Origin: an uncultured Armatimonadia bacterium
GTDB taxonomy: Bacteria; Armatimonadota; Zipacnadia; CAZGSV01
Assembly: GCA_964528605.1 (NCBI GenBank)
Contig: CAZGSV010000007.1
Span: 62 to 64,061, forward strand
DNA: 64,000 nucleotides
Direction: 5' to 3'
Shown here: positions 5,212-17,707 of the stretch, one piece after another
Position numbering within the stretch: the first letter of the stretch is position 1
Layout: every line of letters starts with the position of its first letter
Made by a program: the position numbers and the translations under genes
The notes under the pieces: generated by a model
Seen by the model: the letters and a program-made list of their open reading frames with translations, nothing else
What the model was told of the DNA's origin: nothing
Databases searched by the model: none

Positions 5212-5242
5212 CATCCAGAGATGCTGCCCTAGGAGGTCCGCG

Positions 5243-5404
5243 ATGGCCTACAAGATGATTCAGGTCGGCGCCGCTGGCTGGGGCGCGCGGCACGCGCCGC
5301 TCACTCGGACGCCGTTTCGGTATCCAGCGTGTGCGGGCTCACGATCGGCTCCTGCAAGTCGGCCGCTACTTGAGCCGGAACGGGTAGGGTGGGGCGACGC
5401 CTGA
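5243..5404 (+). pseudogene. Probable truncated remnant of a Gfo/Idh/MocA-type Rossmann oxidoreductase
   Basis: Perfect RBS AGGAGG (5231-5236) before ATG 5243. MAYKMIQVGAAGWGA resembles a Rossmann beta1/Gly loop, then the sequence degenerates and overlaps the convergent MATE 3' end. Confidence 0.4.
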
Positions 5405-6803
5405 CCACCGGCCGCTTCCAGCGCCCCGAGAAGTAGTACATCAGGCTGATGACCATCGAAGTGGCGAAACTCGCCGACATCGCGTACCACACGCCCACGA
5501 CATTCTGCAGGCTTCTCGAAAGGTAGGTGGCCAGCGGCACCCGCACGATCCACAGGCTGAAAACCGTGATCACCGTCGTGATGAACGTGTGCCCTGCGCC
5601 GTTGATGACCCCGTTGCTGGCGAACATCACCGCGAACAGCACGTAGCAGGCGCCCACGATGTGCAGGTACCGGACGCCCAGGGCGATCACCTCGGGATCG
5701 TTGATGAACAGGTGAAGCAGCGCCCCCGGCAGGCTCACCACCAACGCGGAACAGGCCAGGGTTATCCCCGCGCTCATCAACACCGCCGACGCGAAGACTC
5801 TGCGCACCCGCGCGTAGCGGTTGGCACCAATGTTCTGCCCCGCCACCGTCGCCACTGCCATCCCAATCGTCATCGCCGGCAGAAAGGCGACCTGGTCAAT
5901 CCGCATCGCCGCACCAAAGGCCGCCACCGCGGTCTCCCCGAAACCGTTCACCAGACCAATCACGAACAACTGCCCAAGCGAGACCACCGACTGCTGAATG
6001 GCAACGGGCAGGCCGATCTTGACGTTAAGCCAAACCGTCTCGGCATCCGCCCGTAGGTGCCTCCAGTCGGGCGCAACCGTGTGTTGCTTCCGCTGGATGT
6101 AGATCAGCAGCGCCGCCAGTGCCACCACTTGTGACACCACCGTGGCCACCGCGGTACCGTTCAGATCAAGCCTCGGCATCCCCAGCCATCCGAACATCAG
6201 GATGGGATCAAGCACCGCGTTGAGTCCCACGGATACCACCTGAAAGTACAGAGGCGTGGCCGAGTCGCCCACGCCGCGCAGCATCGCCGCGATAAGGAAG
6301 AACCCGAACGACGGCGGTATGCTGAAGAGGAAAATGCGCAGGTAGTGCGACGCCAGCGGCAGCACCTCGGCCGGCGTGTTCATCAGGCGCAGCAGCGACT
6401 CCGCGAACAGCAAGCCCATGCCCAGGATCACCAAGGCCAAGCCGCCGCTGAGCACCGTGGCCGACTGCACCACTCGCCGCATCCGCGCCCAATCGCGCGC
6501 GCCCGCCGCTTGCGAGATCAGTATGTTCGTGGCCATGGTGAGCCCGCCCGCTACCGCCACCAGCACGAACACCGTCGGAAAACTCACCGTCACCGCGGCC
6601 AGGGCCGTCGTGCCCAGAAACTTGCCCACCCAAACGGCGTTGATCAGGCTGTAGGCGGTCTGCAGCACGTTCCCAGCCAGCATGGGCAGCGAGAACGCCA
6701 CCAGGTGCCTGGGTATGCTACCGGTCGTCAGGTCACGGCCGTTTCTGAACGCGCCCTGCTTGAGCGTCGTCGAGGATTTCTTGTTGTCTGGAGGGTCCGC
6801 CAA
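5301..6803 (-). CDS. MATE family efflux transporter
   Basis: 500 aa, about 12 TM segments. Motifs 'DLTTGSIPRHLVAFSLPM', 'LRGVGDSATP', 'NAVLDPILMFG', 'GQNIGA'. Confidence 0.92.
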   Translation of the reverse strand: MADPPDNKKSSTTLKQGAFRNGRDLTTGSIPRHLVAFSLPMLAGNVLQTAYSLINAVWVGKFLGTTALAAVTVSFPTVFVLVAVAGGLTMATNILISQAAGARDWARMRRVVQSATVLSGGLALVILGMGLLFAESLLRLMNTPAEVLPLASHYLRIFLFSIPPSFGFFLIAAMLRGVGDSATPLYFQVVSVGLNAVLDPILMFGWLGMPRLDLNGTAVATVVSQVVALAALLIYIQRKQHTVAPDWRHLRADAETVWLNVKIGLPVAIQQSVVSLGQLFVIGLVNGFGETAVAAFGAAMRIDQVAFLPAMTIGMAVATVAGQNIGANRYARVRRVFASAVLMSAGITLACSALVVSLPGALLHLFINDPEVIALGVRYLHIVGACYVLFAVMFASNGVINGAGHTFITTVITVFSLWIVRVPLATYLSRSLQNVVGVWYAMSASFATSMVISLMYYFSGRWKRPVVRRRPTLPVPAQVAADLQEPIVSPHTLDTETASE

Positions 6804-6986
6804 TGCCTCTCGCCACCGACTGCGGAAAGGGTATCTTTAGCACCCGGACCGCCTAGGTGGCAAGCGCCCCGTTGTGCATCGTGGCCGCCCGGAAGCCTAC
6901 TAACTGATGACAACGAACGGCCCCCCGCCCGTTCCCACCTTGCCGCGCAACCGCCGCCCCGCTCGGGCGCGCTGCCCCCTCCCCCC

Positions 6987-8255
6987 CTAGAGCATCTCCA
7001 AGAACGCCTCGATCCGCGTTCTCAGTTGCCCGGTATCCTCCTGGGAATAGTCCGTCTCAATCTTCAGACTCGGAATGCCCTTTTGTTTCAGGGCTGATGC
7101 CACGCGAATGGCCTCCAGATTGTAGCCGTGGCAATACTGCAGCACGTATTGCACCGCACCGGCCACACGGTACTCCTCAGCCAGCCTGAGCACGCTCTCG
7201 ATGCGCTCGTCGTTCGGCGAGAAGCAGGCGCACTCGGTCTTGAGATACCGATCGGCGATGGCCCTGAGTTGCGCCTCCAGGTCTCCATCCGCCTCAGGCA
7301 CCAGGTTCTCAAAGTACCGCGTCCCGGTGCACGTCTCATCGCACACCACGAGCGCGCCGCTCGACTCAAGAAGGTGGTGCAGTTTCCAGTTCCCCGCCAC
7401 CGAAGGACAGCCGGTGATCATGATCCGCTTCGCGCCCTCGCGGCCCACGCTCAGGCCGCGCGCCACCCGCTCCTCCAGGTCCTGGTTCAGCCGCTCCAGG
7501 CTCACAGCGAAGCGCTCGGCATCGTCGGTGAAGGCCGCCTGCGTGACCACCAAAGTGTCCAGGCCGCTTAGTGGCGGCGCCGCCAGGTTGCGGAACGAGT
7601 GCAACCGCGCAAGCCCCCGTCGCCTGCGATTCAATAGCCTCACGGCCTCCGACAGGCTGTCGGCCTCCAGCCTCTTCCCGGTCAAGTCCTCGAGCCGCTC
7701 CTTGAAAGCAAGCACCTCCTCATACCAGAGCGCCGCGTCACGCGGCGACTTCTTCTGCGGCACCTCCATCACGTGGAAGTCGGCTCTCTCGGCCAAAACG
7801 TCCCACGTCTTCTTCTTCGCGTCGCACGTCGTCTCGCCTACGGACATGTCCTCGAGCGGCGCGTAAGGGCACGTCTTCGAAAACGCAAGCCCCAGCGTGG
7901 ATTTGACCAGCGGGCACATGTCCCGCGGAAAGACCCTCTCCGCGTAGGGGACGGAGAACGCCGTGCCCCCGCACAAGGCCAGCGGCAGCACCCCAAGCGC
8001 CACGGCTATCTCCTCGGGCACATACACGCAGAAGGTGCCGATGAACTTGCCCCCCGCCTCCTTGTGGGCGATTATCTCGCGCACCCGCCCGCTGTGCGCC
8101 CGATGGATGACCTCGTCAAAGTACCCCATCGCTCGCGGCCGGTTCTCCTGCCACAGGACCTGCTCGCGGAACTGGGCAGCCGTGTGTTCCGCCAGAGCCC
8201 TGTGACGCTCGACGTCCAGCCCCAGCCCCCGCCACATCTCCTCGTATTCGGTCAC
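6987..8255 (-). CDS. Double-cubane-cluster-containing anaerobic reductase (DCCP; 2-hydroxyacyl-CoA dehydratase HgdB/FldC superfamily)
   Basis: True start is GTG 8255 (RBS AAGGAGG, GTGA overlap with the activator gene), 422 aa. Six cluster-Cys contexts 'TFCVYVPEE', 'DMCPLVKS', 'GETTCDAKKK', 'DETCTG', 'ECACF', 'QYCHGY'. C-terminus 'QLRTRIEAFLEML'. Confidence 0.88.
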   Translation of the reverse strand: MTEYEEMWRGLGLDVERHRALAEHTAAQFREQVLWQENRPRAMGYFDEVIHRAHSGRVREIIAHKEAGGKFIGTFCVYVPEEIAVALGVLPLALCGGTAFSVPYAERVFPRDMCPLVKSTLGLAFSKTCPYAPLEDMSVGETTCDAKKKTWDVLAERADFHVMEVPQKKSPRDAALWYEEVLAFKERLEDLTGKRLEADSLSEAVRLLNRRRRGLARLHSFRNLAAPPLSGLDTLVVTQAAFTDDAERFAVSLERLNQDLEERVARGLSVGREGAKRIMITGCPSVAGNWKLHHLLESSGALVVCDETCTGTRYFENLVPEADGDLEAQLRAIADRYLKTECACFSPNDERIESVLRLAEEYRVAGAVQYVLQYCHGYNLEAIRVASALKQKGIPSLKIETDYSQEDTGQLRTRIEAFLEML

Positions 8256-9028
8256 GAGTCCCCCTCCTTGCCTCGCGCACTCTCGGCGGCAATCAACGCC
8301 GCCCCAATCGCGGGAACGATCTGCGGGTTCTCGGGCACGAACACAGGGATTCCGAGCCGCTCGCCCAGCAGACCAACGATGCATCCGTTCTTCGCTCCCC
8401 CGCCGACGAGGAGAATCTCGGCCCCAGGTTCGACTCTGGATATCAGGCTTTCCAGTCGCACGACTATCGCGTGATGCAGACCGAGAGCAATCCTTCTCCG
8501 ATCGCCGCCCGAGGTAACCAGGGAGACGACCTCCGACTCGGCGAACACCGTGCACATGCTGCTGATCGGAACCGCCGCGTCGGCAGCCAGCGCCTCGCGC
8601 CAGAACTGCTCAATCTCCCAACCCAGCGCGCGCGCCATCAACTCCATGAACCGCCCGGTGCCGGCCGCGCAGCGATCGTTCATCTCAAAGTCATCGAAGT
8701 CCCCGTCCGGTGCCACGCGAATCGCCTTGCAGTCCTGGCCCCCGATGTCCACCACGGTCGTGCAGCCCGGCCGCACGAATGCCGCGCCCCGCGCGCACGC
8801 CTTGATCTCGCTCACCACGCCGTCGGCGAACTCCACTTTCAGCAGGTGTCGCCCGTAGCCGGTCGCGGTCACGGCCTCGAACTTCAGTCCCTCCATGGCC
8901 TGGCGCACCTTGCGCATCGGATCGTGGTCGGTGTCGAAGATGCGAAAACTCTCAACCCGCTCGCCGTCCAGCGTCACCATCTTGGTGGTGCGGGAGCCTA
9001 GATCAATCCCAAGCACGAGGCCGTTCAT
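8252..9028 (-). CDS. ASKHA-family ATP-dependent [4Fe-4S] activator/reductase (DCCP-R; HgdC/BadG-like)
   Basis: Motifs 'GIDLGSRTTK', 'ATGYGR', 'DIGGQDCK', 'MNDRCAAGTGRF', 'SMCTVFAESEV', 'GGGAKN'. ATG 9028 overlaps the PAP2 stop (TGATG); GTG 9031 is an alternative start. Confidence 0.9.
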   Translation of the reverse strand: MNGLVLGIDLGSRTTKMVTLDGERVESFRIFDTDHDPMRKVRQAMEGLKFEAVTATGYGRHLLKVEFADGVVSEIKACARGAAFVRPGCTTVVDIGGQDCKAIRVAPDGDFDDFEMNDRCAAGTGRFMELMARALGWEIEQFWREALAADAAVPISSMCTVFAESEVVSLVTSGGDRRRIALGLHHAIVVRLESLISRVEPGAEILLVGGGAKNGCIVGLLGERLGIPVFVPENPQIVPAIGAALIAAESARGKEGDS

Positions 9029-9549
9029 CACGGCCGCTTCCAGCGCGCCTCAAGCAGGAGGACCACCGCCCCGGCCAGCATTCCGGTCCCCAGGCCGCCG
9101 AGCACGTCGGTGGGCCAGTGCATGCCCAGGTAAGGGCGAGACACGCACGAGAGCAATCCGTAAAAGCCTGCCGCTATCGCCGCCCTCCGGCTCAGCCGCG
9201 CCAACACGGTCGTGGCCGCCGCCGCCGAACTCGCGTGTCCCGACGGGAAAGACCCGTTCTGCCACACGCGCCCGATGACGTTCAGATGCTCCAAGAGCAT
9301 ATAGGGTCGCGGCCTGAACCAGAGATCTTCGATGGCGCCATCGAACGCTACTGAAACTACTATCGCCGCCACCACCCAGAAGGCGATGCGACGCCCCTCC
9401 CGTCCCCCGACCAACACCAGCCCCACGCAGATCAGCCACCACACCAGGCTCCAATCGCCCGCAGTGCTCGAGGCGACCATCAGTGAGTCAATGCCCCGCC
9501 CCCACGAGCGGCTCAGCCACTGGACAATGTGGGCCTCCGTCCCGTACAC
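9028..9549 (-). CDS. PAP2-family membrane phosphatase
   Basis: Catalytic motifs 'RPRPY', 'SFPSGHA', 'SRPYLGMHWPTDVLGG'. GTG 9549 is preferred over TTG 9600 because of its upstream purine-rich RBS. Confidence 0.85.
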   Translation of the reverse strand: MYGTEAHIVQWLSRSWGRGIDSLMVASSTAGDWSLVWWLICVGLVLVGGREGRRIAFWVVAAIVVSVAFDGAIEDLWFRPRPYMLLEHLNVIGRVWQNGSFPSGHASSAAAATTVLARLSRRAAIAAGFYGLLSCVSRPYLGMHWPTDVLGGLGTGMLAGAVVLLLEARWKRP

Positions 9550-9629
9550 CTTGCGACCCCCTGACCATTCCAATCTACCCGCTCCAAACGCTCCGCACAA
9601 GCCCCACAGCCATCCCGCAGACTCTCCCC

Positions 9630-9658
9630 TTGAGCGCCGCGTCGCCCGGTGCTAGCAT
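9630..9658 (+). promoter_or_regulatory. Putative sigma70 promoter of the selenoprotein/sel cluster
   Basis: TTGAGC (9630-9635), 17-nt spacer, TAGCAT (9653-9658) with an extended -10 TG at 9650-9651; 60 nt upstream of ATG 9718. Confidence 0.55.
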
Positions 9659-9717
9659 GGTCCTTGGGCCACCCGGCCTCTGAACACCGAGCTCCTTCCA
9701 CGCGCTGTGACACTGGA

Positions 9718-9969
9718 ATGACCAGAAAGAACAGGCTACGGCTCCTGCTGCTCATCGCCGCCGTCCTTCTCTCCGGCGCGCTCATAGCGTTCTCCACGCT
9801 CAAGGTCAGATACCCTGTTCAGGACACCGTCAAAACGGAGCCGGACATTACCCGCCTCAGCCTCACCCACAGTGTGGAGCGCGGCCCCGACGGCCGTCTG
9901 ACGATGCCTGCGGGAGCGCCCGCCGCTGGCGCCGGCGGGGCCGCCCAGCCGTGCCCTACCTGACTCTAG
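9718..9969 (+). CDS. Small membrane-anchored candidate selenoprotein ending C-P-T-U-L (CxxU)
   Basis: MTRKNRLRLLLLIAAVLLSGALIAFSTL...AAQPCPT, then TGA(9961-9963) CTC TAG(9967-9969). A 9-bp hairpin has its loop 23 nt after the TGA. If TGA is a stop the protein is 81 aa ending CPT. Confidence 0.55.
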
Positions 9970-9976
9970 GGCGAAC

Positions 9977-10762
9977 ATGATTATGGGTTCCATAATCAAG
10001 GCAAAACGAACGATCAGGGCGCGGGTGGTAACTCAGTGGGCAGCGTTGGGCCTCTTCAACTTGCACTTCCTCTCTCTGCGTTCGGTGTGCGCCCCCGTCC
10101 TCAACTGTCATTCCTGCCCTCTCGCCGTCTTCGCCTGCCCCGTCGGCGTCCTGGTCAACTTCTCCGTGCTGCGCCTGGTCCCGTTCATCACGCTAGGCGT
10201 GCTCGGCTTAGCCGGCGCGCTCGGCGGCCGCTTCGTCTGCGGCTGGCTCTGCCCCTTCGGCCTCCTTCAGGACTGGGCCAAGAAGATCAGAAGCAGGAAC
10301 GCCAGCCTGTCCCGCCGCTTCGTTTATCTGAAGTACGCCCTCCTTGCCGGCCTCGTCTTCGCCGTGCCGTTCTTCCTTCCTAAGTCAACCTACGCCTTCT
10401 GCAATCTGTGCCCGGCCGGAACCCTCGAGTCCGCCATACCCTGGGCCGTCATGGGCCTTTCGTCTCCGTGGCGCTGGAGTTTCGGCCTCAGGGCGGCCCT
10501 CCTCCTCGGCACGGTTGTCCTTGCCATCGCCGTCAGCAGGGGATTCTGTCGGACCCTCTGTCCCCTCGGCGCCATACTGGGCGTCTTCAACAAAGTCTCC
10601 TTGCTCAGGCTCAGGCTGACCAAGGAGGACTGCAACCACTGCGGCGCCTGCGCGCGCCGATGCCCTGTGGGCATTGACCCCGCCCGCCAGATCAACCACC
10701 CCGAGTGCATCCGCTGCCTTGAGTGCACCAGAACCGGCCACTTGCAGTTAGGGCCTAGATAG
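9977..10762 (+). CDS. Membrane 4Fe-4S binding protein (NapH/MauN/RdxA-like polyferredoxin)
   Basis: Motifs 'NCHSCPLAVFACPVG', 'CGWLCPFG', 'CNLCPAG', 'FCRTLCPLG', 'CNHCGACARRCP', 'ECIRCLEC', with TM segments between them. Confidence 0.88.
   Translation: MIMGSIIKAKRTIRARVVTQWAALGLFNLHFLSLRSVCAPVLNCHSCPLAVFACPVGVLVNFSVLRLVPFITLGVLGLAGALGGRFVCGWLCPFGLLQDWAKKIRSRNASLSRRFVYLKYALLAGLVFAVPFFLPKSTYAFCNLCPAGTLESAIPWAVMGLSSPWRWSFGLRAALLLGTVVLAIAVSRGFCRTLCPLGAILGVFNKVSLLRLRLTKEDCNHCGACARRCPVGIDPARQINHPECIRCLECTRTGHLQLGPR
9978..9998 (+). promoter_or_regulatory. SECIS-like hairpin 1
   Basis: TGATTATGG-GTT-CCATAATCA, a perfect 9-bp AU-rich stem with a G-first loop, inside the known 16-37 nt UGA-to-loop window. 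Confidence 0.55.
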
Positions 10763-10800: not shown

Positions 10801-11616
10801 ATGTTGATCGTGACCATACTGGCCGCTATGCTCGCGGGGGTGTTGGGCCTGGGGTGGCTTGTCCCTTTGATCATGGGCATCGTCTACCTCAGGAGGAGGA
10901 CGGGCGGAACGGTCCTCACTGTTCTGGGAGGAGTCTGGCTCCTCGGAGTCGTCGCCATTGTCGCGCTCGGGGCCCTGAGTGCCCGCGAGTGGCACCGTAG
11001 TTACGACTACTCGCCGAAGATCGAGCAATTCGACGCAGCGAAGTACACTGGACCGACAGGGACTATCGCCCTGACCTACAAGGGCCGTTCGAGACTTGAG
11101 GTCTACCAGCACGAGCAGCGCAAGCGGTTGCGCCTCTCAACGGACGACGGCACGATCAAGGCGCCCGTCGGTATCTACTCCGTCCTGAGTTACGAGGCCA
11201 TCGCCAAGGACGCCAAGAGAGCCCAATGGGTCGCCACGTACCGCCCCGATTCTCTCAAAGCCGCCGTCAGCGCCGGCGCCACGACCAAACTCGACCTCGG
11301 CCCGCCACTCACCGCCTCAATCACCGTCAAGAAGGCGCCCAACGACAGCGTAACCATGGACTTCAGCCTTACCGGAGCCACCGCCGGGCAGTACACAATC
11401 ACCAAGGCCCACGGTGTCCAGGTAGCCCCCTCTTTCGTGGCCCTCGACCAGTCGGGCCGCACCGTCTGGCGCGGCCGGTTCGAGTATGGCTGAGGGGGCA
11501 CCTGTGGGTATTCCGGGCGAATACCAAAGGAAGTCAAGGGAAAGGTCACCATCCGTCCGGTCGTCGAGGCGGGGCCCTTTTCCATCAAGGCCAAAGACAC
11601 GATCTGGTCAAGGTGA
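10801..11616 (+). CDS. Membrane-anchored candidate selenoprotein (U231 in F-E-Y-G-U-G-G-T-C)
   Basis: RBS AGGAGG and two N-terminal TM helices. The in-frame TGA 11491-11493 is followed by 40 open codons (GGTCGYSGRIPKEVKGKVTIRPVVEAGPFSIKAKDTIWSR) to TGA-TAG at 11614-11619. A SECIS-like hairpin loop lies 20 nt after the TGA. Confidence 0.8.
11507..11525 (+). promoter_or_regulatory. SECIS-like hairpin 2
   Basis: GGTATTC-CGGGC-GAATACC, 7-bp perfect stem, G in the second loop position. Confidence 0.75.
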
Positions 11617-11677: not shown

Positions 11678-12616
11678 ATGACGCGCAGTAGGACACTGAA
11701 GGCTGCCGCTTTGGCGCTTGTCTTCCTAACGGGACTGGCGTGTGTCGCGTTCCTGGGCTCCTGCCGGCAACCACCGACCACCAGCCCTCCTCCGCGTACG
11801 GTCGTTACGCCACCTAGCACGTTTCCCCTCGCTCGGCCGGCCGCGGTCCGCGACGACGGCAAGCCGCGCTACGGCAAGATCGTTCTCAACCAGGACGCCT
11901 CGAAGGTCCTGCTGGTCTCCTTCGAGCGCTCGCCTGAGGCCCGCGCGGGCTACGACCTCATCCGCGCAGACACCAAGTTCACAGGCTCCCTCAAGAACGC
12001 CGAGCAGATACCAGGTACTCTCACCGCATCGGGTACTGTCTTCTCGGCCCGCTTCCCCATTATCAACCTGCAGGTGCCCTTCAACCAGAAGGGCAGCGGC
12101 ATCCCGAACCCTTCGTCCGTTCAGTTCAGGTACTACGGCTCCGGCTCGGACCCGCGGGTCAACGTATCCGTCAGAACTCGCCTCCGCGAGGGCGCTACCT
12201 ACTGGGACTACTCCTTCCGGGGCATGCTCAAACCCTCGGCTAGCCCGCAGACCGCTCCCGTGCTCGACCTGAGCCGTGCGGCCAAACCAAACATCGAGAT
12301 CACGACCCAGCCGGACCCCGCGAAGAAAGGGTACACAGGCATCGGCCTCCAGTTGGGCGTCGCGGACATGGAGGTGGATTTCTGGAAAGGAACGATGCCC
12401 TCCACCGCACCGTCCGCCACCATCGTGTTCACCGCTGAAGGCGGTCGCGTCGCGCACCGCAGTACCGCCTCACTCGACAAGTTTACCTTTGGCTGAAGCG
12501 GCTCATGTGGGTATTCCGTGCGAATACCAAAGGGCAAATACACCCTTACCGCCAGCGTGGACACGGGCCCGCTGGCCGGAGTGGTCAAGGGCACCAAGGC
12601 TGTTGTCCTCAACTAA
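11678..12616 (+). CDS. Lipoprotein candidate selenoprotein (U273 in F-T-F-G-U-S-G-S-C)
   Basis: Signal peptide with lipobox 'LGSC' and a Pro/Thr linker. The in-frame TGA 12494-12496 is followed by 39 open codons (SGSCGYSVRIPKGKYTLTASVDTGPLAGVVKGTKAVVLN) to TAA 12614-12616. A SECIS-like hairpin loop lies 20 nt after the TGA. Confidence 0.8.
12510..12528 (+). promoter_or_regulatory. SECIS-like hairpin 3
   Basis: GGTATTC-CGTGC-GAATACC, the same stem and spacing as hairpin 2 with one loop substitution. Confidence 0.75.
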
Positions 12617-12736
12617 TCCCTAACTTCGCGGTCTCCGCTCGCCGGCCTTGGGCGGCGCCTCGCCACAGCCCAACCTGCTGCGCCCTGACCACCTCCGTTT
12701 GGGCCAGACCTTGGCTTGTCGCGTGGGAGGCAGCGT

Positions 12737-14158
12737 TTGGATAGCGAGATCCTGCGGCAGCTGCCCTCCGTTGACCAACTCCTGAACGCCGCCGAACGCG
12801 CCGGCCTCATCGGCGAGCACGGCCGTGAGATGGTGCTCAATGCGGCGCGCGCCGTGCTCGACCAGGCCCGGGCCCAGATCGCGCACGGCTCAGCCGCGCT
12901 GCCCGATTCCCGGGAGCATGCTACCGACCTTATCGTCGGCCAGATCGCGGGCTATCTGCAAGAAGCGGCCAGTCGCTCCCTCGGTCGTGCCGTGAACGCA
13001 ACCGGCATCATCATCCACACCGGCCTAGGCCGAGCCCTGTTGCCCCGCACCGCCGCCGAGGCCGTAGCCGAGGTCCTGGGTGGCTACTGCAACCTCGCGG
13101 TTGACCCGGACACGGGCCAGCGCGGACACCGAGACTCGCACCTCGTCGGCCTCCTCTGTGAACTCACCGGCGCCGAGGCCGCCACCATGGTCAACAACAA
13201 CGCCGCCGCCACCATGATCATCCTCAACACGCTGGCCAAGGGGAAAGAGGTCATCGTCTCCCGTGGCCAACTGGTCGAGATCGGCGGCTCCTTCCGCATG
13301 CCGGAGGTCATGGAGGCCAGTGGCGCCATCCTCCGGGAAGTGGGCACTACCAACAAGACCTACCTGAGCGACTACCTCAACGCTATCGGCGACAACACCG
13401 GAGCCATCCTGCGCGTCCACCAGAGCAACTACCGCATCATCGGTTTCACCGAACAGCCGGCCCTCGAAGGCCTCGTGCGCGTCGGCCACGAGCACAACCT
13501 GCCCGTCATTGACGACCTCGGCAGCGGCGCGCTCCTCGACATGAAGGACTTCGGCCTGGCGCACGAGCCCATGGTGCAAGAGAGCATTCGCGCGGGCGCG
13601 GACGTCGTCTGCTTCAGCGGCGACAAACTTATCGGCGGCCCACAGGCCGGCGTCATCGTTGGCCAGGCCGCTGTCATCGAGAAGATCAAGAAGAACCCGC
13701 TGGCCCGCGCCCTGCGAGTCGGCAAGATGACCATAAGCGCCCTGGAAGCGACGCTGCGCCTGTTCCTCAGCCGCGACAGACTCCTCAGCGAGAATCCGAC
13801 CTATCGCATGTTGTCCCTCCCCCTCTCCGAACTCGACGAGCGGGCCAAGTCCGTCGCCGAGGCGCTGCGCGAAGTCCTCTCAGGCGTCGCCGAAATCGCC
13901 GTCATTGACGGCGCCTCCGAGGTCGGCAGCGGCTCCGTGCCCGCGGAGGCGATTCCCACGCGCCTCCTGAGCGTCAGGCCCACAGCGGTGTCCACTCAGA
14001 CCCTGGCCCGATCACTCCGCCACTACGCCCCCCCCATTTTCGCCCGCGTCCACAAGGACGCGGTGCTCTTCGACTTCCGCACCCTGCAAGCCGAGGAAGA
14101 TGCGATCGTCTGTGCCGCGCTGCGGGCGCTCCTGGCAAATGAGGCGACGTCCGAATGA
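12737..14158 (+). CDS. selA: L-seryl-tRNA(Sec) selenium transferase
   Basis: Motifs 'VNATGIIIHTGLGRA', 'VNNNAAA', 'SRGQLVEIGGSFRMPEVM', PLP-Lys 'FSGDKLIGGPQAG'. TTG 12737 has RBS GGGAGG; TTG 12716 is an alternative. Confidence 0.97.
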   Translation: MDSEILRQLPSVDQLLNAAERAGLIGEHGREMVLNAARAVLDQARAQIAHGSAALPDSREHATDLIVGQIAGYLQEAASRSLGRAVNATGIIIHTGLGRALLPRTAAEAVAEVLGGYCNLAVDPDTGQRGHRDSHLVGLLCELTGAEAATMVNNNAAATMIILNTLAKGKEVIVSRGQLVEIGGSFRMPEVMEASGAILREVGTTNKTYLSDYLNAIGDNTGAILRVHQSNYRIIGFTEQPALEGLVRVGHEHNLPVIDDLGSGALLDMKDFGLAHEPMVQESIRAGADVVCFSGDKLIGGPQAGVIVGQAAVIEKIKKNPLARALRVGKMTISALEATLRLFLSRDRLLSENPTYRMLSLPLSELDERAKSVAEALREVLSGVAEIAVIDGASEVGSGSVPAEAIPTRLLSVRPTAVSTQTLARSLRHYAPPIFARVHKDAVLFDFRTLQAEEDAIVCAALRALLANEATSE

Positions 14159-15741
14159 TAGACCCGGAGAAGAGACGGCGCGTGATGGAGCGGTCCATGA
14201 AGTTGGGCCACTGCATCTGCAACCCCAAGCAGGCCTGCCCGTGTGACCTTTTCAAGGAGCAAGACGTCTGCACCTGCGCCGGCGAGCGCCCTCACCATCT
14301 CTCCTCCGAGGTCCGACTCACCACCCTGGTCGAGAACCCCGGCTGCGCCTCGAAGATCAGCCAGCAGGACCTGAAGCAGATCCTCGTAGGCCTCCCGCAC
14401 GAGACCGACCCGAACGTCCTCGTGAGCGCAAGCACCTGCGACGACGCCGGCATATACCAACTGGACGAGGACCGTGCGCTCGTCCAATCCGTGGACGTCT
14501 TCGCGCCCAGCGTGGACGACCCCTATACCTTCGGCCAGATAGCCGCCGCCAACTCGCTCAGCGACATCTACGCCATGGGCGGCCGGCCCCAAACGGCCCT
14601 CGCCATCATCGGCTTCCCCACCGACAGTCTGAGCGCCGACATCATGACCGAGATCGTCCGCGGCGGCATTGACAAGATGCGCGAGGCCGGCGTCCCCGTC
14701 ATTGGCGGCCACAGCATCAACGACCGCGAGATCAAGTTTGGCTTCGCCGTCACCGGCGTCATCAACCCCTCCACAATCGTCACCAATGCCAATGCCCAGC
14801 CCGGCGACCTCCTGCTGCTAACCAAGCCCCTGGGTGTCGGCGCCATCGCCTTCGCCGCGCAACTGGGGAAGGCGTCGTCGCTCGCGCTCACGGCTTCGGC
14901 CCGCGCCATGAGCCAACTCAACAATACGGCCGCCGAAGTGATGCTCGAAATCGGTGTCAACTCCGCCACCGACGTCACCGGCTTCGGCCTCCTCGGCCAC
15001 CTCACCGAGATGGCCGTCCAGAGCGGCGTCACAGTCGAGGTCTACCCGGAACAGATCCCGACGTTCCCGGAAGCCCTCGATTACCTCTCCCAGGGCATCA
15101 TCTCTGGGGCGGCCGAGCGCAACAAAGAGTACGTCTCGCGCTACGTCACCTTCGCCCCGGGCGTGAGCGAAGCCATGCAGTATCTGCTCTGCGATCCTCA
15201 AACCTCGGGCGGCCTGCTCATGGCCGTCCCGGCCGAGAAGGCCCAGGCGCTGCTCGCCGCGCTTCGCAATCGCGGCGTGGAGGCTGCCTCGATCATCGGC
15301 GCAGTGAGCGCCAAGTCGGAGGCACATATCGTGATCAAGAACAACCAACCTTGCTGTGCGGAAGAAGCCTCGGCTGAGGAGGCAGCGGCCGCGCCGGAGG
15401 AATCCCCCGCCGCTTGCTGTGCCTCCGTCGCTCACGCGGAGTGCTGCGCCACTCCCGACGAGGCTCCCCCAGAGACCGCCGATACTCCCGCCAAGGAGAG
15501 CTTCATGGCCTTCATGGGTGAGGTCATGCGCGAGGGGGGCATCAGCCTCCACAACAAGGAACTCATGGCCATCGCGCTCTCCCTGCTCGCCAAGTGCGAG
15601 CCCTGCGCCAGAATCCACCTGAGCAAGGCCCGCGCCGCCGGCGCCCGCGAGGACGAGATCACCGAGGCCGTCTGGATGGCCGTCGCCTTCGGCGGCGCGC
15701 CCACGCTGATGTTCTATGAATCGCTCAAGGGAAGCGATTGA
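14155..15741 (+). CDS. selD: Selenide, water dikinase (Cys-type) fused to an N-terminal Cys-rich FTR-like domain and a C-terminal AhpD/CMD domain
   Basis: Core 'GCASKI', 'DDAGIY', 'QSVDVF', 'FGQIAAANSLSDIYAMGG', 'GGHS', 'TDVTGFGLLGHL', 'DPQTSGGLL'. Extra N-terminal CIC/CPC/CTC motifs and C-terminal 'KELMAIALSLLAKCEPCARIH'. Confidence 0.95.
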   Translation: MIDPEKRRRVMERSMKLGHCICNPKQACPCDLFKEQDVCTCAGERPHHLSSEVRLTTLVENPGCASKISQQDLKQILVGLPHETDPNVLVSASTCDDAGIYQLDEDRALVQSVDVFAPSVDDPYTFGQIAAANSLSDIYAMGGRPQTALAIIGFPTDSLSADIMTEIVRGGIDKMREAGVPVIGGHSINDREIKFGFAVTGVINPSTIVTNANAQPGDLLLLTKPLGVGAIAFAAQLGKASSLALTASARAMSQLNNTAAEVMLEIGVNSATDVTGFGLLGHLTEMAVQSGVTVEVYPEQIPTFPEALDYLSQGIISGAAERNKEYVSRYVTFAPGVSEAMQYLLCDPQTSGGLLMAVPAEKAQALLAALRNRGVEAASIIGAVSAKSEAHIVIKNNQPCCAEEASAEEAAAAPEESPAACCASVAHAECCATPDEAPPETADTPAKESFMAFMGEVMREGGISLHNKELMAIALSLLAKCEPCARIHLSKARAAGAREDEITEAVWMAVAFGGAPTLMFYESLKGSD

Positions 15742-17707
15742 GAGCGCCGCCGCGGACGCCGAGCAGATAATCGTCGGCACCGCAGGCCACATTGACCACG
15801 GCAAGACCGCGCTCGTCAAGGCCCTAACCGGCGTAGACGCCGACACCCTAGCCGAGGAAAAGCGCCGCGGCATCACCATCGAACTCGGCTTCGTCTTCAT
15901 GGAGACGCCCGACCCGCGCAAGCACCTGGTCTTCATTGACGTCCCGGGCCACGAGCGCCTTATCAAGACCATGGTGGCCGGCGCCAGCAGCATTGATGCC
16001 GCTCTGCTCGTGGTCGCCGCAGACGAAGGCGTCAGCGCCCAGACCCGAGAGCATCTCGACATCCTGCGTTTGCTCGAAGTGCCGGCAGGCGTCGTGGCGC
16101 TCACCAAGGCGGACCTGGTTGACGACGAGCGTCTCGCCTTCGTCGCGCAAGAGACCCGTGACTCCCTCGCCGACACCTTCCTCAGCGACGCGCCGATCAT
16201 ACCCGTATCCTCGGTCACGGGCTGCGGCGTCGAGGACATCAGGTCTGCCGTGCTGGCGTTGGCAGACCGCGTGCGCCCGCGGCCCGACAGTGGCATCTTC
16301 CGCATGCCCGTTGACCGCGTCTTCACCATGCACGGCTTCGGCACCGTCATCGCCGGCACCATCCTCTCAGGCTCAGTCGCGGTCGCTGACACCATCGAGT
16401 TGTTCCCCGACGGGATGCTCGCCCATGTGCGCGGCATACAGGTCCACCGCCAGAACACGAAGCGCTCCAACATCGGCAAGCGCACCGCAATCAACCTTCA
16501 GGACATTGAGAAGGAGAGACTGCGGCGTGGCCAGTGCGCCGCGGCACCCGGCTCGCTCACGCCGACGAACCGCCTCGACGTCCGGCTTCGGCTGATGGAG
16601 CATTGCCGTCAAAGCCTGAAGAACCGCGCCAGGCTCCGCCTCCACCTGGGCACGGACGAGGTCATCTGCCGTCTGGCGCTTCTCGACCGCGAAGACTTGG
16701 CGCCCGGTGCCGAAGCGCCGGTGCAACTCGTGCTCGAAAGCCCGACCGTGGCCGTCCGCAGCGAGCGTTTCCTCGTCCGCACCTTCTCGCCGCAAGTGAC
16801 TATCGGTGGTGGCGCCGTGCTCGACCCATTGCCCCCGCGACACAAACGCTTCGACCCGGCAACGGTCGAGGACCTCGCCCGCCTCGACCGCGGCCTCGAA
16901 GAGGCAGTTGAGCAGGCCTTCCTCAAGTCGGGCTTCATCCCTCGGACGCCGCAGCAGGTCGCCCTCGCCCTTGCGGAGCGAGAGGAAGAGGTCACGCCAG
17001 CCGTGGAGGGCCTCTGCCAGGCGCGACGGCTCGTCAAGATCGCCGCAAGTGGCGAGCCAAGTCCGCCCTCGGCCTCACCGCAACAAACGTACCTGCACGC
17101 CGACGCCTTCGCGTCGCTCGGTCAGCGCCTGCTCACCCTCATCGAAGAGTACTACGCGCGGCACCCGTATCGGCTCTTGATGCCGCTCGCGGACCTCCAG
17201 TCGCGCTTCCTCAGATGGGCCGAGCGGCCCCTGTTGGACGCGGCGCTCGCCGACCTGCGCAAAGCCGGGCGCATCTACTCCCAGGAAGGCGCCGTCGGCC
17301 TGAGCGGCTACGAGATACCGCTCAAGCCCTCCGAACGCCAGTTGGCCGAACGCATCGAGGCGGCCTTCAGCGGGGCCGGCCTTGCCGCGCCCCTGGAGGA
17401 GGAAGTGCGCCAGCACCTGGGCGCGCGCCCCGAGACCTTCCAGAGCATCCTCACAGGTTTGATTGACCAAGGGCGCTTGGTTAGACTCAGCGACAAGGTG
17501 ACCTATCACCGAGAGCATCTGGACGCGGCGCGCGCCATGGTGACCGACCACCTCAAGACCCATCAGCGCCTCTCCGTCGCCGAACTACGCGACCAACTCG
17601 GCGTCTCGCGCAAGTACGCCCTCGCGCTCATGGAGTACTTCGACAAGGTCGGCCTCACCCGGCGCGAAGGCGACGCCCACGTCCTCAAGCAGCCAGCGGG
17701 AAGGTGA
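15716..17707 (+). CDS. selB: Selenocysteine-specific translation elongation factor
   Basis: 'GTAGHIDHGKT', 'EEKRRGITIELGF', 'DVPGHE', 'TKAD', C-terminal winged helix 'RDQLGVSRKYALALMEYFD...TRREGD'. Confidence 0.97.
   Translation: MNRSREAIESAAADAEQIIVGTAGHIDHGKTALVKALTGVDADTLAEEKRRGITIELGFVFMETPDPRKHLVFIDVPGHERLIKTMVAGASSIDAALLVVAADEGVSAQTREHLDILRLLEVPAGVVALTKADLVDDERLAFVAQETRDSLADTFLSDAPIIPVSSVTGCGVEDIRSAVLALADRVRPRPDSGIFRMPVDRVFTMHGFGTVIAGTILSGSVAVADTIELFPDGMLAHVRGIQVHRQNTKRSNIGKRTAINLQDIEKERLRRGQCAAAPGSLTPTNRLDVRLRLMEHCRQSLKNRARLRLHLGTDEVICRLALLDREDLAPGAEAPVQLVLESPTVAVRSERFLVRTFSPQVTIGGGAVLDPLPPRHKRFDPATVEDLARLDRGLEEAVEQAFLKSGFIPRTPQQVALALAEREEEVTPAVEGLCQARRLVKIAASGEPSPPSASPQQTYLHADAFASLGQRLLTLIEEYYARHPYRLLMPLADLQSRFLRWAERPLLDAALADLRKAGRIYSQEGAVGLSGYEIPLKPSERQLAERIEAAFSGAGLAAPLEEEVRQHLGARPETFQSILTGLIDQGRLVRLSDKVTYHREHLDAARAMVTDHLKTHQRLSVAELRDQLGVSRKYALALMEYFDKVGLTRREGDAHVLKQPAGR

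What the first reader, a model, noticed from the sequence alone, without database searches (positions are those of the whole stretch)
6987..9028. Double-cubane [8Fe-9S] reductase (DCCP) with its ATP-dependent activator
The 422-aa protein follows the DCCP pattern of Carboxydothermus hydrogenoformans along its length, as I recall that sequence, with all six cluster-Cys contexts. It is coupled to an ASKHA [4Fe-4S] ATPase. Established: that pair reduces acetylene, azide and hydrazine in vitro with ATP-driven electron transfer, and its physiological substrate is unknown. The ORF track overextends this gene to 8555.
Basis: established knowledge. Interest (0 to 1): 0.6.

Follow-up and report, generated by a model that had tools for sequence, protein, structure and literature searches.

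The report
Double-cubane reductase pair beside selenium genes
The two genes are an ordinary, intact member of the known double-cubane iron-sulfur reductase family with its ATP-driven electron donor. Their position next to the selenocysteine genes adds one more example to an already reported link between this enzyme, whose natural substrate is unknown, and selenium.

Summary

**The two genes**
- Minus strand 6987-8255 encodes a 422-aa protein. It matches C. hydrogenoformans DCCP (PDB 6ENO) end to end (E 1.8e-125) and passes NCBI's curated equivalog model NF040772 (453 bits, cut-off 350).
- It falls far below the cut-offs for BzdN, HadC and BcrC.
- All seven motif cysteines, including the six cluster ligands, are present (C76/95/114/144/309/342/375).
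- The gene upstream (8252-9031) is the ASKHA [4Fe-4S] ATPase, with both cluster cysteines. Its stop overlaps the DCCP start in a GTGA.
- The ORF running to 8555 is indeed an over-extension.
- The genome holds only this one HGD-D-family gene, as expected for a homodimeric DCCP rather than an alpha/beta dehydratase.

**Standing**
This is routine annotation: thousands of homologs exist, and many are already named this way.

**The more interesting part is the context**
- The pair lies divergent from a selenoprotein-selA-selD-selB string. In a same-class relative it follows selB directly.
- About 18 of 80 DCCP loci from many phyla carry sel genes within 6 kb.
- In a 151-genome sample, all 20 DCCP-positive genomes have SelD.
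- This link is already in print (Haft 2022, Lin 2015), and this scan has noted it on other DNA about 61 times.
- In four relatives, outside the window, Cys129 is replaced by an in-frame TGA.

The parts
6987..8255 (-). DCCP: double-cubane [8Fe-9S] cluster protein, 422 aa, long (class I) form with the N-terminal helical extension. Inferred cluster ligands are C76, C309, C342 and C114, C144, C375. C95 is the seventh motif Cys. C129 is conserved and is Sec in some relatives.
   Evidence: PDB 6ENO E 1.8e-125 over the full length. NF040772 452.9 bits against a cut-off of 350. PF06050. Foldseek TM 0.88. Cys conservation. Start codon and RBS. Exact protein on record as P0005.
8252..9031 (-). DCCP-R: ATP-dependent ASKHA [4Fe-4S] reductase ('archerase'), 259 aa from GTG 9031 or 258 aa from ATG 9028. 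Cluster Cys are C121 and C160. The DLGS and GGQD phosphate-binding motifs are present.
   Evidence: TIGR00241 220 bits (cut-off 125) and PF01869. PDB hits: 7YYL_E DCCP-R 1.2e-42, MbdQ 5e-46, HadI 1e-43, HgdC 1.4e-43. C121 and C160 align with DCCP-R C115 and C152 (PMC9351452).
8256..8555 (-). Non-coding over-extension of the DCCP frame. It lies out of frame inside the activase gene.
   Evidence: The same spurious extension appears in same-class relatives L003 and L004, which share the activase-then-DCCP order.
9028..9600 (-). PAP2-family membrane phosphatase. It is co-oriented with the pair, and its stop overlaps the activase start. It is probably co-transcribed but is not a conserved partner.
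   Evidence: PF01569 7.7e-20. Found in 0 of 80 DCCP loci.
9977..10762 (+). NapH/MauN-like membrane polyferredoxin (Fer4_5 plus a dicluster domain), divergent from the DCCP operon. It recurs near DCCP and selA in other phyla.
   Evidence: Found near DCCP in L014, L050, L055, L073, L076 and L090 and in L099.
10801..11616 (+). Exported protein whose annotated stop is a TGA after '...FEYG'. The frame continues as 'U-GGTCGYS...', so it is a likely selenoprotein (context only).
   Evidence: No Pfam or NCBIfam hit. A homolog is present in L099. Matches the earlier scan note e1-1123003.
11678..12616 (+). Paralogous lipoprotein-like protein with TGA after '...FTFG' and continuation 'U-SGSCGYS...'. It is a likely selenoprotein (context only).
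   Evidence: A homolog is present in L099.
12716..14158 (+). [quoted passage not shown]
   Evidence: TIGR00474 570 bits. PF03841.
14155..15741 (+). selD (Cys type), with an N-terminal Cys-rich extension and a C-terminal AhpD/CMD CxxC domain
   Evidence: TIGR00476 373 bits and PF02627.
15716..17707 (+). selB, selenocysteine-specific elongation factor
   Evidence: TIGR00475 380 bits.

Best explanation
**Identity.** Genes 8252-9031 and 6987-8255 (minus strand) encode a two-component, ATP-driven, very-low-potential reductase of the DCCP/DCCP-R type.

**How it works, by homology to the solved C. hydrogenoformans system (inferred, not measured here).**
1. A DCCP-R homodimer holds one [4Fe-4S] cluster between its subunits, through C121 and C160 of each.
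2. It is reduced by a ferredoxin or flavodoxin, binds MgATP, and docks on the DCCP homodimer.
3. The ATP hydrolysis and product-release cycle drives an electron uphill into the [8Fe-9S] double cubane.
4. That cluster is held by C76/C309/C342 and C114/C144/C375. A small substrate, entering through a narrow channel closed by the N-terminal helices, is reduced there.

**Most likely physiological role (inference, about 45% likely).** The pair serves selenium metabolism. It probably makes or releases selenide, or a protein-bound perselenide, for SelD from a more oxidised or bound selenium species. Conserved Cys129 would act as a substrate-handling thiol.
For: **Identity**
- 6ENO E 1.8e-125 over the full length.
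- NF040772 equivalog 452.9 bits, above the 350 cut-off.
- Foldseek TM 0.88 to 6ENO.
- Tree clade support 97.
- The seven motif Cys are invariant or 79/80 across 80 DCCPs, and all are present here.
- Five of the six published BzdN [8Fe-9S] ligands (Cys36/73/100/263/293/327, PMC11971306) align exactly with window Cys. The sixth is one column off in a gapped stretch.
- HadC keeps only the C114/C144/C375 set.
- The activase has the two ligand Cys and the nucleotide motifs. The two genes overlap in a GTGA.
- There is only one HGD-D gene in the genome.

**Selenium link**
- The window has selA-selD-selB and two putative selenoprotein genes divergent from the pair.
- Same-class relative G037 has one string: NapH-like, FEYG-U-like x2, selA, selD, selB, activase, DCCP.
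- SelD, SelB and SelA are the most frequent conserved neighbours after the activase. About 18 of 80 loci from at least 8 phyla carry them.
- In a 151-genome Fibrobacterota sample, 20 of 20 DCCP-positive genomes have SelD, against 33 of 151 overall.
- Among the 14 control genomes, NF040772 and SelD pass their cut-offs in the same two only.
- Published support: 955 of 970 NF040772 proteins lie in SelD-positive assemblies (Haft, bioRxiv 10.1101/2022.07.06.499078).
- Cys129 is an in-frame TGA in four relatives.
Against: **Identity**
- Nothing substantial argues against it.
- The activase scores as well against HAD and BCR activators as against DCCP-R. Its assignment therefore rests on adjacency.
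- The printed 7-Cys regex of the review does not match literally. The solved protein has the same spacing over the gapless part of the alignment, so the printed numbers appear to be off.
- The AF2 model is poor (pLDDT below 50) over residues 95-143, the cofactor-binding stretch.

**Selenium role**
- Most DCCP loci (about 60 of 80) show no sel gene within 6 kb.
- In this window the pair is on the opposite strand from the sel genes and is co-transcribed with an unrelated PAP2 gene.
- Co-occurrence with SelD could reflect shared anaerobic niches.
- No selenium substrate has ever been tested on a DCCP.
- The genome counts are not corrected for kinship.
Confidence: 0.93

Rival explanations
1. The 422-aa protein is the beta subunit of a 2-hydroxyacyl-CoA dehydratase (HgdB/HadC/FldC type). 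It would carry a single cubane and be activated once by the ATPase.
For: It belongs to the same Pfam family, PF06050. Older annotations of homologs read '2-hydroxyacyl-CoA dehydratase' or 'BcrC/BadD/HgdB'. The activase scores equally well against HadI and HgdC.
Against: HadC model 105 bits against a cut-off of 700. No alpha-subunit gene, and only one HGD-D gene in the whole genome. All six ligand Cys are present, whereas HadC keeps three. HadC-like proteins form a separate clade (99) on long branches. The N-terminal extension typical of long DCCPs is present.
Confidence: 0.02
2. It is a BzdN-like electron-storage subunit of a class I aromatic-ring (benzoyl-CoA-type) reductase.
For: BzdN also carries an [8Fe-9S] cluster on the same six Cys positions (PMC11971306). 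It is the second-best PDB hit.
Against: TIGR03190 126 bits against a cut-off of 454. There is no BzdO-like partner. There is one stand-alone activase gene rather than a BzdP/BzdQ pair. No aromatic-degradation genes are nearby.
Confidence: 0.02
3. It is a true DCCP, but its substrate has nothing to do with selenium. It could be a small unsaturated or N-N/N-O compound, or a detoxification target. The proximity to sel genes would reflect a shared anaerobic lifestyle, co-regulation, or a selenoprotein partner elsewhere in the pathway.
For: The only measured activities are on acetylene, azide and hydrazine (PMC9351452). About three quarters of DCCP loci show no sel gene nearby. In this window the pair is on the other strand from the sel genes and is coupled to PAP2.
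Against: sel genes are by far the commonest conserved neighbours across phyla, and they often lie in one same-strand string with the pair. DCCP presence is nested inside SelD-positive genomes (Haft 2022). Other conserved neighbours are selenium/sulfur carriers: TusA-DsrE and NifS-like genes.
Confidence: 0.35
4. The SelD link exists because the cofactor itself contains selenium: a Se-bridged double cubane, 2x[4Fe-4S]-Se, made with SelD's product. Haft raised this as a formal possibility.
For: The near-absolute DCCP/SelD co-occurrence (Haft 2022).
Against: The recombinant E. coli-produced enzyme was modelled with a bridging sulfide and is active (PMC7317905). This reading does not explain co-operonic selA and selB, or the Sec/Cys alternation at residue 129.
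Confidence: 0.07

Closest known systems
DCCP / DCCP-R of Carboxydothermus hydrogenoformans (CHY_0487/CHY_0488; PDB 6ENO, 7YYL, 7YZM, 7YZQ; Jeoung & Dobbek 2018, 2022)
   Same: Same length (422 vs 421 aa) and collinear, with one 1-residue gap. 45% identity in the structural alignment. All seven motif Cys are present, plus Cys129 and Cys344. The N-terminal helical extension (class I) is present. An adjacent activase carries both cluster Cys and the nucleotide-binding motifs.
   Different: The gene order is reversed here: activase first, with overlapping stop and start. The residue equivalent to DCCP N111, which H-bonds to the DCCP-R cluster Cys, is Asp here. There are extra Cys at 283 and 305. 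The source is a mesophile-type, 65% GC uncultured lineage. The pair sits next to the sel operon.
NCBIfam NF040772 'double-cubane-cluster-containing anaerobic reductase', including E. coli YjiM with YjiL
   Same: Scores above the curated cut-off, so NCBI's pipeline would give it this name. Many close homologs already carry it.
   Different: According to the review, YjiM is a short form (388 aa) without the channel-closing N-terminal helices. The window protein is the long form.
BzdN of class I benzoyl-CoA reductase (PDB 8S02)
   Same: The same fold, and an [8Fe-9S] cluster on equivalent Cys positions.
   Different: BzdN is an electron-storage subunit in a heterodimer with BzdO. It lacks the seventh Cys (Leu at the C95 position) and the N-terminal extension. 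Identity is 27%.
DCCP/DCCP-R genes listed as 'putative selenium metabolism' genes (Haft & Gwadz 2022/2023; Lin et al. 2015, Table 1, Slackia; mlp-cluster preprint PMC10418091, Fig. 5)
   Same: The same association of this enzyme pair with selD, selA and selB.
   Different: Here the partners are selA-selD-selB, a NapH-like polyferredoxin and FEYG-U-type exported proteins. The SAO cassette and the YedE/YedF/DUF3343 carriers are not seen within the stretch annotated.

Membership tests
DCCP (double-cubane cluster protein; NF040772) | Full-length sequence and fold similarity to the solved DCCP (6ENO) | tested here: met
   phmmer E 1.8e-125 over residues 5-422. Foldseek TM 0.88, 45% identity.
DCCP (double-cubane cluster protein; NF040772) | Score above the curated equivalog cut-off, and well above sister families | tested here: met
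   452.9 bits against a cut-off of 350. The next best is BzdN at 126.
DCCP (double-cubane cluster protein; NF040772) | Seven-Cys motif: six [8Fe-9S] ligands plus one nearby Cys | tested here: met
   C76, C95, C114, C144, C309, C342 and C375 align gaplessly with the Cys of 6ENO. They are conserved in 79-80 of 80 DCCPs. They map onto the published BzdN ligands, five exactly and one a column off. The review's literal spacing string does not match. It cannot match 6ENO either, because 6ENO has the same spacing.
DCCP (double-cubane cluster protein; NF040772) | Homodimer without a distinct alpha subunit | tested here: met
   Only one PF06050 gene in the 95.7%-complete genome. The oligomeric state itself was not measured.
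DCCP (double-cubane cluster protein; NF040772) | Partner ATP-dependent [4Fe-4S] reductase encoded next to it | tested here: met
   Activase at 8252-9031, overlapping by GTGA. An activase is adjacent in 69 of 80 homologous loci.
DCCP (double-cubane cluster protein; NF040772) | Actually binds [8Fe-9S] and reduces acetylene, azide or hydrazine with ATP | not testable with these tools
   Needs anaerobic expression, metal analysis, EPR and activity assays.
DCCP-R / archerase (TIGR00241, PF01869) | ASKHA ATPase with two Cys that bridge a [4Fe-4S] cluster in the dimer, plus phosphate-binding motifs | tested here: met
   220 bits against a cut-off of 125. C121 and C160 align with C115 and C152 of 7YYL_E. 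DLGS and GGQD are conserved.
DCCP-R / archerase (TIGR00241, PF01869) | Specific for DCCP rather than for a dehydratase or BCR | tested here: inconclusive
   The scores to MbdQ, HadI, HgdC and DCCP-R are all within E 1e-42 to 5e-46. The assignment rests on adjacency, and on DCCP being the only HGD-D gene in the genome.
2-hydroxyacyl-CoA dehydratase beta subunit (HadC/HgdB) | Family HMM cut-off, paired alpha subunit, single three-Cys cubane | tested here: not met
   105 bits against 700. No second HGD-D gene. Six ligand Cys present. Separate clade.
BzdN / BcrC (class I benzoyl-CoA reductase) | Family HMM cut-off, BzdO/BcrB partner, two different ATPase subunits | tested here: not met
   126 against 454 and 56 against 421 bits. 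No partner subunit. A single stand-alone activase gene lies beside it.

The most novel reading that the evidence does not exclude
This DCCP/DCCP-R pair, and the long DCCP family in general, is the unassigned enzyme that delivers reduced selenium to SelD. ATP-energised electrons at the double cubane would reduce a selenium species bound to Cys129 (selenocysteine in some lineages). That species could be elemental or polymeric Se, a selenotrisulfide or perselenide, or a methylated Se compound. The products would be selenide or a protein perselenide. If so, the family's long-unknown physiological substrate is a selenium compound.
Probability: 0.3. Interest if true: 0.75.

Novelty: new member of a known kind. 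Interest (0 to 1): 0.35.

Why it matters
The physiological substrate of DCCPs has been unknown since their discovery in 2018. The gene pair in this window adds nothing new about the enzyme itself. Its setting is a clean, intact example of the DCCP-selenium linkage in a poorly known, uncultured lineage.

- In the window the pair is divergent from the selA-selD-selB genes.
- In a same-class relative it follows selB directly.

Two further results support direct experiments with selenium substrates and a C129 variant. One is the cross-phylum neighbourhood and co-occurrence counts made here. The other is the Sec/Cys alternation at residue 129 seen in relatives. The selenium link itself is already in print and has been found many times by this scan, so the added value is incremental.

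Tried and rejected
- **Literal 7-Cys motif.** A regex of the motif printed in PMC7317905 gave no match. I rejected this as evidence against membership, because the solved protein has the same Cys spacing over the gapless part of the alignment.
- **The 2018 PNAS paper and the J Bacteriol version of Haft & Gwadz.** Neither is held. Ligand numbering was therefore inferred from alignments and from the BzdN paper.
- **Promoter and terminator scan of 5000-10500.** It found no promoter-like site and fewer terminator-like sites than the shuffled sequences, so it is uninformative.
- **PAP2 and MATE as functional partners.** They occur in 0 of 80 and 1 of 80 homologous loci, so I rejected them.
- **Crude ORF clustering.** It produced a spurious 20-locus 'family' of antisense ORFs across DCCP in high-GC loci (cluster 2), which I ignored.
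- **A very negative Se(0)/HSe- potential recalled from memory.** I could not source it. [quoted passage not shown]
- **The Methanococcus selenium proteomics paper.** It does not mention this enzyme.
- **Complex prediction.** Not run. This is a textbook pair with solved complexes, so a pass would only reflect that likeness.
- **Tree rooting.** With the remote HGD-D outgroup, the HadC-like clade nests inside the DCCPs on very long branches. I use the tree only to show that the window protein is not in that clade, not to infer the order of evolution.
Full report
**What is in the sequence**

On the minus strand three ORFs follow each other with overlapping stops and starts.
- 9028-9600 is a PAP2 phosphatase (Pfam 7.7e-20).
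- 8252-9031 is a 259-aa protein.
- An ORF ending at 6987 has its longest form starting at GTG 8555.

The 8555 start would place 100 codons of the last gene inside the preceding gene, in another frame. The GTG at 8255 gives 422 aa and is preceded by AAGGAGG. It overlaps the upstream stop as GTGA. The exact 422-aa protein is on record in the large protein collection (P0005). Same-class relatives show the same spurious upstream extension. The upstream gene may start at GTG 9031 or at the next codon, ATG 9028. I could not decide between them.

**Identity of the 422-aa protein**

- phmmer against all PDB chains gives 6ENO and 7YYL (C. hydrogenoformans DCCP) at E 1.8e-125. The alignment covers residues 5-422 with one single-residue gap. 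BzdN (5e-36), HadC (2e-21) and MbdN (1e-17) follow far behind.
- NCBIfam gives NF040772 'double-cubane-cluster-containing anaerobic reductase', an equivalog model, at 452.9 bits (cut-off 350). BzdN scores 126 (cut-off 454), HadC 105 (cut-off 700) and BcrC 56 (cut-off 421).
- An AlphaFold model built on 24 homologs has pTM 0.83 and mean pLDDT 78.5. Residues 95-143, which wrap the missing cofactor, are poor. The model matches 6ENO/7YZM at TM 0.87-0.88 and 45% identity, against 0.72 for BzdN and 0.71 for HadC.
- In a 43-sequence tree the protein lies in a six-member clade of long DCCPs (SH-aLRT 97). The clade includes proteins from Aminicenantes, a 'WS1' record and two same-class relatives. Five HadC-like proteins fetched from Clostridia form their own clade (99) on long branches.

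**Cluster ligands**

The protein has Cys at 76, 95, 114, 129, 144, 283, 305, 309, 342, 344 and 375.
- The review (PMC7317905) defines a seven-Cys motif. Six are ligands of the [8Fe-9S] cluster and one (Cys94) sits next to it.
- The motif as printed does not match by regex. Over residues 5-316 the alignment to 6ENO has no gap, and the Cys coincide. The printed spacings therefore cannot fit the solved protein either.
- Paper numbering is chain numbering minus one, since Cys94 is chain C95 and N111 is chain N112.
- The BzdN paper names its six ligands as Cys36/73/100/263/293/327 (PMC11971306). In the phmmer alignment five of them fall exactly on window C76, C114, C309, C342 and C375. Cys100 falls one column from C144, beside a gap.
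- HadC, which has a single cubane, keeps Cys only at the C114, C144 and C375 positions. C76/C309/C342 therefore form the second, distal set.
- Across the window protein plus 79 homologous loci, C76, C95, C114, C144 and C375 are 80/80. C309, C342 and C344 are 79/80.

By sequence, the protein has everything needed for a double cubane. Cluster content itself cannot be tested here.

**The partner ATPase**

The 259-aa protein scores 220 bits against TIGR00241 (cut-off 125) and carries PF01869. It matches MbdQ, HadI, HgdC and DCCP-R (7YYL_E) about equally, at E 5e-46 to 1e-42. C121 and C160 align with DCCP-R C115 and C152, the two [4Fe-4S] ligands named in PMC9351452. The DLGS and GGQD nucleotide-binding stretches are conserved.

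Sequence alone does not say which acceptor it serves. Adjacency does: the genome has only one HGD-D family gene. It has one stand-alone activase, plus an unrelated 1435-aa double-activase protein on another contig. A single HGD-D gene also fits a homodimeric DCCP and excludes an alpha/beta dehydratase or a BzdNO-type enzyme.

**How common it is**

The protein search returned 4379 hits at E <= 1e-20 among the 8000 candidates scored. The best are 61-71% identical, and many are already named 'double-cubane-cluster-containing anaerobic reductase' by NCBI. A scan of species-representative genomes found more than 580 loci across Aminicenantes, WOR-3, Planctomycetota, Clostridia, Eggerthellaceae, Bathyarchaeia and others. 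As an annotation this is routine.

Two details differ from most relatives.
- The gene order is activase then DCCP, as in same-class relatives and L030/L035. Elsewhere DCCP almost always comes first.
- A PAP2 gene is coupled upstream. It is found in none of the 80 loci.

**Context**

Divergent from the pair, on the plus strand, lie:
- a small ORF ending in TGA (9718-9963);
- a NapH-like polyferredoxin (9977-10762);
- two paralogous exported proteins whose 'stops' are TGA after FEYG/FTFG, with frames that continue as U-G/S-x-x-C-G-Y-S (10801-11616 and 11678-12616);
- selA (12716-14158);
- selD with extra N- and C-terminal Cys-rich domains (14155-15741);
- selB (15716-17707).

In G037, a genome of the same class but another family, one plus-strand string runs NapH-like, the two exported-protein homologs, selA, selD, selB, activase, DCCP. 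The linkage is therefore conserved within the lineage. The window shows an inverted version of it.

**Is the selenium linkage general?**

- tblastn of the window's neighbours against the 80 loci found SelA, SelB or SelD within 6 kb in about 18 of them. They often share a strand with the pair. Examples are L013/L014 (selA-selD-selB-DCCP-activase), L076/L090 (NapH-like-selA-selB-DCCP-activase-selD), and L035, L044, L050, L055, the WOR-3 loci and Eggerthella.
- An annotation-free clustering of flanking ORFs ranked SelD (16 loci) and SelB (12 loci) as the commonest conserved neighbours after the activase. SelA appeared in 8 loci.
- Further conserved neighbours include a SAM methyltransferase (11 loci), an FTR-beta-like protein (6), a TusA-DsrE fusion (5) and a NifS-like enzyme (5).
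- A rough estimate (my inference): a random 12-kb window should hit the sel genes in well under 1% of cases.
- Among 41 same-class genomes, the four with a DCCP above the cut-off all have SelD, against 17 of 41 overall.
- In a 151-genome Fibrobacterota sample all 20 DCCP-positive genomes are SelD-positive, against 33 of 151 overall. Fisher's exact test gives 1.4e-16, not corrected for kinship.
- Among the tool's 14 control genomes, both families pass their cut-offs in the same two only, E. coli and M. jannaschii.

**This link is not new**

- Haft's preprint (10.1101/2022.07.06.499078) built NF040772. It reported that 955 of 970 such proteins lie in SelD-containing assemblies.
- It proposed a role in processing selenium compounds, or in pathways with selenium-dependent steps. 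As a formal possibility it raised a Se-bridged cofactor.
- Lin et al. 2015 (PMC5322559) list a 'dehydratase subunit' and an 'activase' among the neighbours of selA/B/D in Slackia.
- PMC10418091 draws DCCP/DCCP-R as putative selenium-metabolism genes.
- This scan has noted the same pairing on other DNA in 61 findings from at least 56 genomes.
- The SelD fusions and the FEYG-U family were also noted before.

**A side observation outside the window**

In four of the 80 loci the DCCP frame carries an in-frame TGA exactly at the residue aligned with window Cys129, and the frame continues to full length. The loci are L069, L070 and L080 (Fibrobacterota/Chitinivibrionales) and L071 (a Planctomycetota-labelled MAG).

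- The genome search reports '1 TGA' inside above-cut-off matches in these four genomes.
- A 5-7 bp hairpin lies 22-25 nt downstream in all four. It is absent from the window.
- Cys129 is not part of the seven-Cys motif. It is Cys in 74 of the 80 sequences, including 6ENO. The other two are Ser.
- A Sec/Cys alternation usually marks a redox-active catalytic residue (general knowledge of selenoproteins).
- I found no paper in the held library that mentions a Sec-containing DCCP, and no earlier scan note.
- The hairpin overlaps conserved coding sequence (the VGETTCD motif), so its conservation is only weak evidence.

**Mechanism**

Shown by homology: the ATPase dimer with a bridging [4Fe-4S] cluster, ATP-coupled electron transfer to a six-Cys [8Fe-9S] site, and a long-form N-terminus that narrows access to small molecules (PMC9351452, PMC7317905).

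Inferred: the physiological substrate is a selenium species and the product feeds SelD, with Cys129 handling the substrate. I put this at roughly 45% for 'selenium-related' and 30% for the specific selenide-supply version.

Against it:
- most DCCP loci lack sel neighbours;
- the pair here sits on the opposite strand from the sel genes;
- no selenium substrate has been tested;
- the only sourced statement on energetics is that H2Se has a potential close to that of H2 (PMC5187540), which does not by itself demand an ATP-driven reductase.

**Verdict**

This is a new member of a known, automatically annotated family. Its moderate interest comes only from a selenium context that is already published and repeatedly seen in this scan, plus a possibly unreported Sec form in relatives.

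Noticed in passing
L069:6370-6372, L070:421-423, L071:1252-1254, L080:6379-6381 (aligned with window Cys129, codon at 7869-7871 minus strand): Four DCCP homologs (three Fibrobacterota/Chitinivibrionales, one Planctomycetota-labelled MAG) have an in-frame TGA exactly where the window and 73 other sequences have Cys129. The frame stays open to full length, and a small hairpin lies 22-25 nt downstream. These are probably selenocysteine-containing DCCPs. I found no mention of them in the papers searched or in earlier scan notes.
   Followed up: partly
window 10801-11616 and 11678-12616 (+): Two paralogous exported or lipoprotein-like proteins with no Pfam or NCBIfam hit end at TGA after FEYG/FTFG. 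Read as Sec, the frames continue 'U-GGTCGYS...' and 'U-SGSCGYS...' for about 40 more residues. They fit the FEYG-U-G putative selenoprotein family noted earlier by the scan, and homologs lie in the same place in relative L099.
   Followed up: partly
window 9718-9969 (+): A small ORF with a signal-like N-terminus ends '...QPCPT' at a TGA. One more codon and a TAG follow, directly before the NapH-like gene. It may be another UGA-containing gene.
   Followed up: no
window 14155-15741 (+): SelD is the Cys type. It carries an N-terminal Cys-rich stretch of about 45 residues and a C-terminal AhpD/CMD domain with CxxC. The long fused form (530-600 aa open frames, no TGA) occurs in six same-class genomes: G000 (the window's own), G021, G022, G030, G031 and G037. 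Three of them (G000, G021, G037) carry a DCCP above the cut-off. Most other relatives have a shorter SelD with one TGA.
   Followed up: partly
L099:3826-14576 (G037, same class): One co-directional string runs NapH-like, two FEYG-type proteins, selA, selD, selB, activase, DCCP. The window's arrangement is an inversion of the activase-DCCP end of this string.
   Followed up: yes
L017, L021, L028, L029, L033, L040, L041, L044, L045, L049, L080 (e.g. L028:2717-3559): A SAM-dependent methyltransferase (UbiE/Methyltransf_11 type) recurs near the DCCP/activase pair in 11 loci, and in L028 it starts directly after the activase. An FTR-beta-like small protein recurs near DCCP in 6 loci, and in L041 it lies directly upstream. 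TusA-DsrE and NifS-like genes occur in 5 loci each. None of them is in the window.
   Followed up: partly
G164:C76:16765-17835, G166:C13:14139-15206, G167:C7:5754-6824, G212:C318, G257:C738: Fibrobacterota genomes carry DCCP matches inside open frames of 873-930 aa, which suggests fused forms, possibly with the activase. In G164 and G166 such a gene lies 3-5 kb from the TGA-containing DCCP.
   Followed up: no
L061:3252-4517: A DCCP homolog in a Thermosediminibacteraceae MAG has an in-frame TAG at the position of window residue 349. It is either a broken gene or a sequencing error.
   Followed up: no
L004 (G021) versus L030: The DCCP of same-class genome G021 is identical to that of a record titled 'candidate division WS1 bacterium'. 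This hints at the lineage to which the window's class belongs. The window's own genome is the only member of its family among the species representatives.
   Followed up: no
PMC7317905 motif versus window 6987-8255: The seven-Cys motif as printed in the review (and copied by Haft) has spacings (X19, X166-170) that fit neither this protein nor the solved one. The spacing here is 18/18/29/164/32/32. The solved protein shares the first four values over the gapless part of the alignment, and a one-residue gap makes its fifth 31.
   Followed up: yes
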